Below are positions 9,001 through 10,599 of a stretch of DNA of 10,599 nucleotides, piece after piece; the first letter of the stretch is position 1; each line of letters starts with the position of its first letter. A program made the position numbers. This DNA comes from a virus (taxonomy: Duplodnaviria; Heunggongvirae; Uroviricota; Caudoviricetes): the IMG/VR virus record IMGVR_UViG_2713896787_000001, one strand, 5' to 3'.

Positions 9001-10599
9001 TCGAAAAGGATTTTGTGTGGTCGGCTGTAAAATGAATCGGGCTTCAGCATCGCCAGAACTTTCTGGACGCGCTCACTGCTGTCATCATCCAGAAGCAATC
9101 CACCAATCACCGCCTGCTCTGCCTCGATGCTATGGGGCGGCGCATAAAAATTATCGGTCATCGTGTTCACCCTCACGAACTTTCAGGTAGGTATTGTCGT
9201 TAAGCAGGAAATCAAATCCCTTTTTGTGCCAGACGGTTCCGCGCTGATGGTTTGGGCGCTCTTCGAACATCCATCGGCAATTTTCGCCTACGTAGCTCAA
9301 ATAATTTCTCCAGTCCTGCATCGTGAACCCATGCCCGTCAAGCTGGCGGGTTATCACTCCGGCTTTGCGCCAGAACGTTCGGATCTGGTTTTTACGCTTG
9401 TCATTCAGTGCGCGGATTTTTGGCGCTTCAGGAAGGATTTCGTGGTAAGCATCGACAACATCCTGACAGCTAACGGAAGGTTTTTTCTTGTCAGACTTTT
9501 TGTCTGCTGCGGTACTCTCTAATACGTCAGTATTAGAGATAATATTATTATATTCTTTATCTGTGGTAATTTGCTGGTAATCTGCTGGTACAGTATTGCT
9601 TGCAGGCATTGGTATTGCTGGCTTTGAGGTGGTAATTTGCTGGTAATCTGCTGGTACAAAATTTGACTGATAATCGTCATATTTCTCTACCGAGAAAACT
9701 GAGAATTTACCGTGTGAAACCCAGTCAATCATGCCGAGTTTTTTGAACTTTCTAAGCAGGTACTGAACGCGATCTGGTTTGAGTCCTGTTTCAAACGCCA
9801 GAGAGTTTCTACCGCCAAGTAGCTTCCCTCTGCCTACCAGAATTTCTCCTGCGTCAGTCATTACATACTCAGGCGTATGCTTTGCTTTGAGGATTAAGTG
9901 AACCCACAGATGCGCAGCTTCTGCGTCCTTGTAAAACGGCACATCCATAATTTTACGGTGCAGCAAGGCATACCCCTTACCGCTGCTTTGATGCGGTTGT
10001 TGTAGCCTTCTGGCCTCTCTGGCTTCGGCTAGATTAGATATGTTACTCATGACCTTTCTCCTTCTGCATCAGCTTCACTTTTTCCAACTCAGCCCGGAAT
10101 CGACCAGGCTGCTTGAAGCTGGACAGGAAGCGATCACGTAGTATGTGTTTGTGAATTTTGTCCTGGTAAGGACTGAGTTGTTTTGTCATAATTACTCCTG
10201 TGGATTGATCCAGTCTTTCTACATCAGGCCTCGAAGAATTCGCCGTTCTTCGGGGCTTTTTCTTTTGTCAGCATTCTGGCTACTTTCTTAGCCAGTTCCG
10301 CCAACTCCTCGTCTTCAACACCCCATTCAAGAACAGCCAGAAGCATTCCCATTTTTGGGATGAAGCTGTCTTTCCATCGCGAAATTTGCGATTCATTAAT
10401 TCCTAACGCGTCAGCAACCTTTCGCTGGCCACGTACAGCAATTCGGTTCAGGATGTTGCTTGTAATTGCATTCGCTTTCTTGCGAGTACTTGTAAGTTGC
10501 ATATGTAAGTATTTCCTTAGATAACAATTGATTGAATGTATGAACCGCCCCGGAAATCCTGGAGACTAAACTCCCTGAGAAAGAGGTAAACAGGATGAC

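What the first reader, a model, noticed from the sequence alone, without database searches (positions are those of the whole stretch)
10184..10266. OOP-like antisense unit: extended -10 promoter and strong terminator convergent on the cII 3' end
On the plus strand, antisense to cII, an extended -10 element is followed about 70 nt later by an 11-bp-stem terminator with a U-tract located inside the cII coding region. This mirrors lambda OOP RNA, which down-regulates cII expression. The sequence in between shares short motifs (GATTGATCCAG) with lambda OOP by memory.
Basis: partly seen in the sequence, partly recalled or inferred. Interest (0 to 1): 0.45.

Follow-up and report, generated by a model that had tools for sequence, protein, structure and literature searches.

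The report
Known OOP antisense RNA unit, P22/HK620 type
This is the ordinary, already described OOP-type antisense RNA unit that lambda-like phages carry opposite the end of their cII lysogeny gene, here sitting in a crippled Shiga-toxin prophage.

Summary
TGtCATAAT lies at 10184-10192 (+). A 14-pair hairpin (10226-10258) with a T-tract (to 10268) follows about 66 nt later, inside the 3' end of cII (10224-10502, minus strand). The window is 100% identical to cryptic Stx1 prophage CP-1639. The homologous P22 segment is annotated "oop promoter/terminator", and a 63-nt P22 oop RNA whose first 30 nt are identical to the window was seen by small-RNA-seq. Hayes et al. 2012 had already aligned this pO/oop core in 23 lambdoid phages, CP-1639 included.

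Comparative data support function:
- 48 of 49 distinct Enterobacterales cII loci carry an antisense terminator at the cII 3' end, against 1 of 49 on the sense strand.
- All 26 distinct P22-type hairpins fold, with many compensatory pair changes.
- 47 of 49 loci have a -10 hexamer matching TATAAT at 5 or 6 positions.

Three qualifications apply:
- The TG extension is not conserved (20 of 49).
- The lambda-type 5' stem-loop is absent.
- In CP-1639, IS629 has replaced the immunity region, so cII has lost its pR promoter and the unit is probably a relic here.

Novelty: already known. Interest: low.

The parts
10164..10169 (+). Weak candidate -35 (TGGTAA, 3 of 6 matches to TTGACA, 17-bp spacer)
   Evidence: Read from the sequence. 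The P22 record places its 'oop promoter' over the homologous stretch. The two-hexamer scan did not call it.
10184..10192 (+). TGn + -10 hexamer CATAAT (pO-type). CAT is the complement of the ATG of the downstream minus-strand ORF.
   Evidence: It aligns base for base with lambda pO -10. Mutating lambda ATTAT to GCGCG abolishes OOP (PMC3349717). 47 of 49 related loci have a 5/6 or 6/6 hexamer; the TG extension is present in only 20 of 49.
10196..10215 (.). CTGT-N8-CCAG palindrome-like core (TCCTGTGGATTGATCCAGTC). Part of the conserved 33-bp pO/oop-5' block and a possible weak LexA box.
   Evidence: It is the top PWM score in the window (10.7 bits) but within the range of shuffles (median maximum 9.0, 95th percentile 13.9); lambda scores 15.1 (the PWM was built from LexA boxes recalled from memory). 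CTG-N10-CAG is present in 25 of 49 loci. A LexA site within lambda oop-pO is cited in PMC5869508.
10200..10265 (+). Predicted OOP-type antisense RNA, about 63-66 nt. The 5' end is G10200 by alignment with lambda +1, or G10203 by the P22 reads. The 3' end lies in the T-tract.
   Evidence: lambda +1 G aligns to 10200. (the P22C-oop 63-nt sequence; its first 30 nt equal window 10203-10232). (fold).
10226..10258 (+). Terminator hairpin: 14 pairs including 3 G.U, 5-nt loop UCGCC
   Evidence: All 26 distinct homologous hairpins fold (-17.4 to -25.7 kcal/mol), with compensatory pair changes at 6 or more stem positions.
10259..10268 (+). T-tract (TTTTCTTTTGT) of the intrinsic terminator, inside cII codons for L-T-K-E-K
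   Evidence: No T-run follows the hairpin on the minus strand. Terminator-like sites on the sense strand occur in 1 of 49 loci, against 48 of 49 on the antisense strand.
10224..10502 (-). cII (92 aa), the target gene. Its last ~43 nt plus the 24-nt cII-orf48 spacer are complementary to the RNA.
   Evidence: Pfam Phage_CII, E = 1.8e-42. Annotated cII in AJ304858.
10043..10189 (-). orf48/hkaW homologue (DUF2740, 48 aa). Its start codon and Shine-Dalgarno sequence (AGGAGT, complement of 10194-10199) overlap the promoter and +1 region.
10541..10565 (.). IS629 terminal inverted repeat, 38 bp upstream of the cII ATG. The IS replaces cro, cI, N, pR and pL.
   Evidence: Annotation of AJ304858. The window offset was derived.

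Best explanation
This is the P22/HK620-type member of the lambdoid OOP antisense-RNA unit. A sigma-70 promoter has its -10 (CATAAT, 10187-10192) doubling as the start-codon context of the next early gene. It fires convergently to pR transcription, starting at about G10200. The transcript ends at an intrinsic terminator built into the last codons of cII, giving a ~63-66-nt RNA that is perfectly complementary to the cII 3' end and the cII-orf48 spacer. By analogy with lambda, pairing with the pR transcript creates an RNase III substrate that uncouples and destabilises cII mRNA. That lowers CII and biases the phage towards lytic growth. What is shown here: the anatomy, the homology, the conservation and covariation of the terminator, and detection of the orthologous RNA in P22 (from a paper). 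What is inferred: promoter activity in this sequence, RNase III dependence, and the effect on CII. In CP-1639 itself the circuit is broken, because IS629 has removed pR, cro and cI. The unit is therefore most likely an intact relic with no target transcript.
For: - Identity: the window is 100% identical to CP-1639.
- Annotation: the homologous P22 segment is annotated 'oop promoter' and 'oop terminator; similar to phage lambda', and the phage 434 record annotates an oop ncRNA at the same place.
- Homology to lambda: the alignment shows TTTGTCATAATnACTCCTGTnGATnGATCCAGT conserved, and lambda OOP +1 aligns to G10200.
- RNA detection: P22C-oop, 63 nt, was detected only in infected cells by small-RNA-seq, and its first 30 nt are identical to window 10203-10232 (PMC13397905). 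An OOP(BTP1) ncRNA was annotated from the transcriptome of a Salmonella prophage at the same position antisense to the cII 3' end (PMC7067206).
- Prior description: Hayes 2012 aligned the 33-bp pO/oop-5' block in 23 phages, including CP-1639, and showed that a lambda -10 mutation abolishes OOP.
- Terminator conservation: 48 of 49 distinct cII loci from many Enterobacterales genera have an antisense terminator at the cII 3' end. The controls are 1 of 49 on the sense strand and 3 of 49 and 6 of 49 elsewhere antisense within cII.
- Covariation: 26 distinct P22-type hairpins all fold, with C-G/G-C and G-C/A-T/C-G/T-A switches at stem columns 13, 14, 16 and 19-21. The many G.U pairs are valid only on the antisense strand. 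Mean dG is -19.0 on the antisense strand and -15.0 on the sense strand.
- Promoter conservation: -10 hexamers are CATAAT in 32 loci, TATAAT in 9 and TAAAAT in 5 of 49, and the predicted RNA length clusters at 56-79 nt.
- Modular conservation: at least four unrelated upstream modules and three downstream modules recombine at this core, and every downstream module ends in a hairpin plus T-run.
Against: - There are no expression data for CP-1639 or for this exact sequence.
- The -35 is poor, and the consensus scan called no promoter.
- The -10 overlaps an ATG and its A/T-rich spacer, so part of its conservation may be translational. An identical TGTCATAAT sits on the ant start codon with no terminator found downstream.
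- The 5' end of the P22 reads would lie 11 nt after the -10, further than usual, so the 5' end may be processed or trimmed.
- Lambda's 5' stem-loop is absent. The window's 5' 29 nt fold at -7.2 kcal/mol, z = -1.4.
- OOP had little or no role in eliminating CII after SOS induction of lambda (PMC2327240), so the physiological weight of the mechanism is debated even in lambda.
- In CP-1639, cII has no pR.
Confidence: 0.88

Rival explanations
1. Relic reading. The unit is sequence-intact but has no regulatory consequence in this prophage, because its target transcript is no longer made. It is preserved only because the decay is recent or because it hitch-hikes.
For: IS629 lies 38 bp upstream of cII, and the next gene beyond it is a truncated erf. 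No cro, cI, N, pR or pL is annotated. The transposase genes run away from cII. No promoter-like site was found on either strand in 9000-10599. The prophage is described as cryptic in the title of Creuzburg 2005, cited.
Against: This does not contradict the identification; it concerns only the present function. The promoter could still fire on its own. The unit is identical to copies in many other genomes, so no decay is visible. An outward promoter inside IS629, beyond the window end, was not examined.
Confidence: 0.6
2. Coding and translation artefact. The '-10' is only the A/T-rich spacer plus ATG of orf48, and the hairpin is a by-product of constraints on the CII C-terminus or on cII mRNA. 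No separate antisense transcript is made.
For: CATAAT is the complement of ATTATG. The TG comes from codon 2 (ACA) and is not conserved (20 of 49). The same 9-mer occurs on the ant start codon without a terminator downstream. The hairpin also exists, more weakly, on the sense strand (mean -15.0 kcal/mol).
Against: The C-terminal residues of CII vary widely ([33 protein letters not shown] and others), while pairing is kept by compensatory changes. The G.U pairs and the T-tract are antisense-specific, with 48 of 49 against 1 of 49. The RNA is observed in P22, and an ncRNA at the same position is annotated in the BTP1 prophage transcriptome. The lambda -10 mutation abolishes OOP. The hexamer is kept next to non-homologous downstream genes.
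Confidence: 0.04
3. The main role is not antisense control of cII. Alternatives are convergent-transcription interference with pR read-through into the replication genes, a replication-linked function of pO transcription, or control of orf48/O translation through the duplex that abuts the Shine-Dalgarno sequence.
For: The RNA 5' end lies directly next to the orf48 Shine-Dalgarno sequence (10194-10199), within a ribosome footprint (inference). In lambda, oop+ ori+ plasmids inhibit lambda-type replication only when pO and the oop sequence are intact (PMC3349717). The reported cleavage sites lie outside cII (PMC5869508).
Against: Lambda/P22-replication hybrids escape that inhibition while their cII is still inactivated by OOP, so the antisense effect on cII is the transferable one. 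The terminator sits inside cII in every family examined, which fits cII as the target.
Confidence: 0.12

Closest known systems
Bacteriophage lambda OOP RNA (pO-oop-tO, 77 nt)
   Same: It occupies the same place, convergent on the cII 3' end between cII and the first replication-module gene. It has the same -10 (CATAAT) overlapping the next gene's ATG. The ~33-bp promoter/5' block is homologous, and there is an intrinsic terminator inside cII.
   Different: Only about the first 15 nt of the RNA are homologous. The RNA here is about 63-66 nt rather than 77, and it lacks lambda's 10-bp 5' stem-loop. The hairpin abuts the stop codon (+2/+3), whereas in lambda it starts 25 nt inside cII, so the overlap with cII is about 43 nt rather than 55. 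The -35 is unrelated, and the downstream gene is orf48 (DUF2740) rather than O. The LexA-like box scores lower (10.7 against 15.1 bits).
Salmonella phage P22 oop (annotated in BK000583; P22C-oop RNA, 63 nt)
   Same: Same module type, with orf48 downstream and a C1/CII gene 86% identical in protein. The promoter and the first 30 nt of the RNA are identical. The hairpin is in the same position.
   Different: The middle of the stem differs through compensatory changes (GAAGAA/TTCTTC here, AAAACTG/CAGTCTT in P22), with correspondingly different CII C-termini (KNGEFFEA against QDCGNSFEA). P22 has TGg rather than TGt before the -10 and a better -35 (TGGTCA).
HK620, HK446, mEpX2 and other E. coli lambdoid prophages carrying the same unit
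   Same: HK620 is 97% identical over 620 bp, including the whole unit. HK446 and mEpX2 have CII proteins 100% identical to the window's. Sequence matching the unit occurs in 1040 of 5426 complete E. coli genomes, and 373 of them cover at least 80% of the 151-nt query.
   Different: Those phages keep pR, cro and cI upstream of cII. CP-1639 has IS629 there instead.
Rfam ctRNA_p42d (RF00489)
   Same: A weak match over the terminator hairpin and T-tract only (19 bits, E = 0.4).
   Different: The score is far below the gathering score (50). It is a generic terminator resemblance, not a relationship.

Membership tests
Lambdoid OOP antisense RNA unit | [quoted passage not shown] | tested here: met
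   cII is Pfam Phage_CII at 1.8e-42. The gene order is cII, orf48, O, DnaB-type helicase. The hairpin and T-tract lie inside cII on the opposite strand.
Lambdoid OOP antisense RNA unit | pO-type promoter whose -10 overlaps the start codon of the next rightward gene; sequence homologous to the conserved 33-bp pO/oop-5' block | tested here: met
   The alignment with lambda and P22. The exact-core pattern was found in 120 or more viral contigs. The published block ACTGGATCaATCcACAGGAGTaATTATGaCAAA is the reverse complement of window 10181-10213, with CP-1639 listed. Promoter activity itself was not tested.
Lambdoid OOP antisense RNA unit | Rho-independent terminator within the cII coding sequence, specific to the antisense strand and maintained by selection | tested here: met
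   A 14-pair stem plus T-tract. z = -5.4. 48 of 49 antisense against 1 of 49 sense. Compensatory changes across 26 distinct hairpins.
Lambdoid OOP antisense RNA unit | A discrete small RNA (about 60-80 nt) is actually made | not testable with these tools
   Indirect evidence only. The orthologous P22 RNA (63 nt) was detected by sRNA-seq, and OOP(BTP1) was annotated from transcriptomics. There are no data for CP-1639 or HK620.
Lambdoid OOP antisense RNA unit | Down-regulates cII through RNase III-dependent cleavage of the OOP:cII-mRNA duplex | not testable with these tools
   Established for lambda (Krinke and Wulff 1987 and 1990, as cited). Here only the full complementarity of a cis-antisense RNA can be stated.
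Lambda-type OOP RNA structure (sub-type) | Two-domain RNA: a long 5' stem-loop (GAUAGAUCCAG paired with CUGGAUUUGU) plus the terminator stem-loop | tested here: not met
   Lambda folds with a 10-11-bp 5' stem. In the window the partner arm is missing (a 9+4-nt gap in the alignment), and the 5' 29 nt fold at only -7.2 kcal/mol, z = -1.4. The unit therefore belongs to the P22/HK620 sub-type, not the lambda sub-type.
Lambdoid OOP antisense RNA unit | LexA operator within pO-oop (reported for lambda) | tested here: inconclusive
   CTGT-N8-CCAG at 10198-10213. PWM score 10.7 bits, the best in the window but not above shuffles and below every training site (14.4 or more); lambda scores 15.1 (matrix built from boxes recalled from memory). 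The motif is present in 25 of 49 loci.
Any curated Rfam family | Match at or above the gathering score | tested here: not met
   The only hit is ctRNA_p42d at 19 bits against a 50-bit cut-off. Lambda's own oop region gives no hit either, so Rfam 15 has no OOP model.

The most novel reading that the evidence does not exclude
The intact OOP-type unit in the crippled CP-1639 prophage may still be transcribed from its own promoter. With no cis target left, it could act in trans on superinfecting lambdoid phages that share this cII 3' module (HK620, mEp043 and Emek types), lowering their CII and biasing them towards lysis. A second reading is also not excluded: the antisense terminator, rather than protein function, dictates the conserved 'KAP...FEA' tail of P22-type CII proteins. 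Residue pairs co-vary as mirror codons of the stem (KAP..FEA, KRP..LDA, KAG..FPA).
Probability: 0.1. Interest if true: 0.35.

Novelty: already known. Interest (0 to 1): 0.1.

Why it matters
It adds little new biology. OOP is a textbook antisense regulator, the P22 version is annotated and detected, and this prophage was already included in a published alignment of the pO/oop core. The practical point is about annotation. Rfam 15 has no OOP model, so the unit goes unannotated in routine pipelines, although sequence matching it occurs in about a fifth of complete E. coli genomes. The 49-locus comparison made here could seed such a model. It shows a conserved -10, a variable 5' domain and a covarying terminator. 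It also illustrates how an antisense terminator shapes the C-terminal tail of CII.

Tried and rejected
- Rfam with permissive thresholds on the region, and on lambda and P22 themselves, found no OOP family. The only hit was a sub-threshold generic terminator match.
- The two-hexamer promoter scan called nothing, because the -35 is poor.
- The search for related loci with the single CII protein on viral contigs returned only near-identical copies and was uninformative for covariation.
- A 9-sequence CII alignment was too divergent for the genome scan. A 5-sequence alignment worked.
- MAFFT alignment of the hairpins is codon-correct but not structure-correct, because stem lengths differ by 1 nt. 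I therefore counted pairs from per-sequence folds indexed on the ungapped 5' arm, instead of using count of structure pairs.
- The LexA-box idea was tested with a PWM built from boxes I recalled from memory. The site is the best in the window but not significant, so it is kept only as inconclusive.
- The supplements of the BTP1 paper hold no OOP coordinates, so no dRNA-seq start site could be transferred.
- A bidirectional terminator or a terminator of cII transcription was rejected. There is no T-run on the minus strand, and only 1 of 49 loci has a sense-strand terminator.
- The 'extended -10' as a conserved family feature was rejected (20 of 49).

Full report
**What is there.** The window is 100% identical, in reverse orientation, to the cryptic Stx1 prophage CP-1639 (AJ304858.2). 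The right end of the window carries these genes on the minus strand:
- cII (10224-10502; Pfam Phage_CII, 1.8e-42)
- a 48-aa DUF2740 ORF (10043-10189; the P22 orf48 / HK620 hkaW homologue)
- an O-like gene (9151-10050)
- a DnaB-type helicase gene (7725-9176)

On the plus strand, TG-t-CATAAT lies at 10184-10192. Its CAT is the complement of the orf48 ATG. A 14-pair hairpin lies at 10226-10258, with an 11-bp uninterrupted core and a UCGCC loop. It is followed by TTTTCTTTTGT. The hairpin begins on the last base of the cII stop codon, so the stem and T-tract are encoded by the last ~14 codons of cII. The segment folds far better than shuffles (z = -5.4 and -4.9, 0 of 200 shuffles).

**Is it more than chance?** The terminator is. 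The -10 motif alone is not. TGNYATAAT occurs three times in the window against 0.64 expected, and 6 of 200 shuffles reach that count. One other copy, at 5127-5135, also sits on a start codon (ant), and no + strand terminator is reported downstream of it in the scanned stretch to 5500. No two-hexamer promoter was called, because the -35 is poor. The case for a transcription unit rests on the pairing of the two elements and on comparative and published evidence.

**Homology to lambda and P22.** Lambda and the window share TTTGTCATAATnACTCCTGTnGATnGATCCAGT. Lambda's OOP +1 (the G that starts GUUGAUAGAUCCAG) aligns with G10200. Downstream of that block the sequences are unrelated, but each ends in its own hairpin plus T-run inside cII. 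The P22 reference annotation labels the homologous stretches 'promoter, oop; similar to phage lambda' and 'terminator, oop'. A phage 434 record annotates an oop ncRNA.

A 2026 small-RNA-seq study found a 63-nt P22 RNA ('P22C-oop') only in infected cells. Its sequence is GAUUGAUCCAGUCUUUCUACAUCAGGCCUC...GAGGCUUUUCUUU, and its first 30 nt are identical to window 10203-10232 (PMC13397905). [quoted passage not shown]

Most tellingly for novelty, Hayes et al. [quoted passage not shown] They listed CP-1639 (AJ304858) explicitly and named its orf48 homologue (PMC3349717). The same paper shows that changing the lambda -10 ATTAT to GCGCG abolishes OOP.

**New comparative test.** I collected cII loci from phage records and from one-genome-per-species bacterial assemblies. 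This gave 49 distinct loci across Escherichia, Salmonella, Pantoea, Erwinia, Rahnella, Yersinia, Enterobacter, Citrobacter, Cedecea and other genera.
- An antisense hairpin plus T-run lies at the cII 3' end in 48 of 49 loci. The controls are 1 of 49 on the sense strand of the same stretch, and 3 of 49 and 6 of 49 on the antisense strand elsewhere in cII.
- 26 distinct hairpins belong to the P22 type, starting 2-3 nt after the stop codon. All fold (-17.4 to -25.7 kcal/mol).
- Stem positions switch between C-G and G-C, or among G-C, A-T, C-G and T-A, at six or more positions, while the encoded C-terminal residues vary freely.
- The numerous G.U pairs would be C-A mismatches on the cII mRNA strand. 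Accordingly the antisense hairpins are more stable (mean -19.0 against -15.0 kcal/mol; 21 of 26).
- A -10 hexamer with 5 or 6 matches to TATAAT is present in 47 of 49 loci (CATAAT 32, TATAAT 9, TAAAAT 5, TATAGT 1). It sits at a distance that predicts RNAs of mostly 56-79 nt.
It derives from codon 2 of the downstream ORF, so it is not a family feature.
- The unit is missing at that site in a Pseudomonas cII relative and in one Dryocola locus.

**Mosaicism.** An exact-pattern scan of viral contigs shows that the core CATAATnACTCCTGTnGATnGATCCAGT joins at least four unrelated upstream modules to three unrelated cII-3' modules, in many combinations. The upstream modules are lambda O, orf48/hkaW and two others. 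The cII-3' modules are the lambda, 21/HK97-like and P22 types. mEp043 and Emek have CII proteins only ~56% identical to the window's. Their last 15 codons are identical to the window's, mEp043 matches the unit base for base and Emek differs at two positions. Divergence begins right after ...CTTTTGTCAG. The unit thus behaves as a recombination joint between the immunity and replication modules. This agrees with the earlier description of this block as a conserved boundary sequence ('sequence 5' of Clark 2001, as cited).

**How it most likely works.** The following is inferred by analogy with lambda. Transcription starts about 7 nt after the -10 (G10200; the P22 reads start at the equivalent of G10203). 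It terminates in the T-tract around 10263-10267, giving a ~63-66-nt RNA. Its terminator stem-loop is strong and its 5' ~26 nt are weakly structured. It is fully complementary to the pR transcript from the cII-orf48 spacer, directly next to the orf48 Shine-Dalgarno sequence, through the last ~43 nt of cII. In lambda the duplex is cleaved by RNase III, and OOP over-expression abolishes CII function (papers cited). The same is expected here but was not tested. In lambda the physiological role appears modest after SOS induction.

**Differences from lambda OOP.** The RNA is shorter and has no counterpart of lambda's 5' stem-loop. The hairpin abuts the stop codon rather than lying 25 nt inside cII. 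The -35 is different, and the downstream gene is orf48 rather than O. The conserved CTGT-N8-CCAG could be the counterpart of the LexA site reported within lambda oop-pO. It scores 10.7 bits against 15.1 for lambda, in a matrix I built from LexA boxes recalled from memory, and it is not above shuffled controls. This point is inconclusive.

**Context in CP-1639.** An IS629 end lies 38 bp upstream of the cII ATG (10541-10565), and beyond the IS comes a truncated erf. The cro, cI, N, pR and pL region of relatives such as HK620 is missing. The transposase genes point away from cII, and no promoter-like site was found in the remaining upstream sequence. cII and the replication genes are therefore probably silent, and the antisense unit, although intact, probably has no target in this prophage.

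**Verdict.** This is a known element of a known kind in a phage where it had already been noted. Interest is low. Rfam 15 has no OOP model, since lambda itself gives no hit. This explains why the unit is not annotated in the CP-1639 and HK620 records or under the E. coli genome matches that were listed, even though matching sequence occurs in 1040 of 5426 complete E. coli genomes.

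Noticed in passing
window 10541-10599 (IS629 end); context in L003 and L291: IS629 is inserted 38 bp upstream of cII and replaces the whole immunity region (cro, cI, N, pR, pL). The next gene beyond the IS is a truncated erf. As a result cII, orf48, O and P have no early promoter in this cryptic Stx1 prophage.
   Followed up: partly
window 5185-5383, minus strand: Rfam gathering-level hits to isrK (5294-5370), C4 antisense RNA (5185-5268) and its a1b1 target (5331-5383). They lie just upstream of the ant (antirepressor) gene, whose ATG is at 5130-5132. A promoter-like site (5406-5377) and a terminator (5315-5299) lie on the same strand. This is a P1/P7-type C4/IsrK antirepressor control region.
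   Followed up: partly
window 570-740, minus strand: A strong Rfam hit to the sRNA STnc100 (140.7 bits), downstream of stx1B.
   Followed up: no
window 5127-5135 (+) and 852-860 (-): Two further exact copies of TGTCATAAT. The one at 5127 overlies the ant start codon (context ATTATGACA), and no + strand terminator was reported downstream of it in the scanned stretch to 5500. It is a useful internal control showing that the motif alone does not indicate an antisense unit.
   Followed up: yes
window 226-275, 499-548, 2330-2379, 3310-3369: Runs of N (masked sequence) inside the window.
   Followed up: no
L211 (mEp043), L209 (Emek) against window 10200-10272: CII proteins only ~56% identical overall share the last 15 codons with the window. 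mEp043 matches the OOP unit base for base and Emek differs at two positions. Divergence starts immediately after the T-tract (...CTTTTGTCAG). Together with the promoter-core joint, mosaic boundaries flank the OOP unit on both sides.
   Followed up: partly
loci (for example L243, L259, L227, L240): The C-terminal residues of P22-type CII co-vary as mirror codons of the antisense terminator stem (KAP...FEA, KRP...LDA, KAG...FPA, KAP...IDA/FSA). The RNA hairpin appears to shape the protein tail.
   Followed up: partly
L207, L230, L243, L244, L247, L252, L254, L255: In some loci the CTGT-N8-CCAG block after the -10 is replaced by a different 5' element, a short inverted repeat such as TGTGTTGGCGTAACACAG. 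The 5' domain of OOP-type RNAs therefore comes in at least two unrelated forms.
   Followed up: no
L263-L288 (genome-contig hits): Lambda-type cII (53% identical to the query over residues 7-91) turns up on short or low-coverage contigs of unrelated taxa, including Shewanella, Bradyrhizobium, Kitasatospora, Neobacillus and Leeuwenhoekiella. This most likely reflects lambda DNA contamination of those assemblies.
   Followed up: no
NC_002730 (HK620), NC_002371 (P22), NC_018275 (Emek), NC_019723 (HK630) annotations: RefSeq names the 48-aa orf48/hkaW protein (DUF2740) 'tail protein'. This looks like an annotation error for an early-region gene.
   Followed up: no
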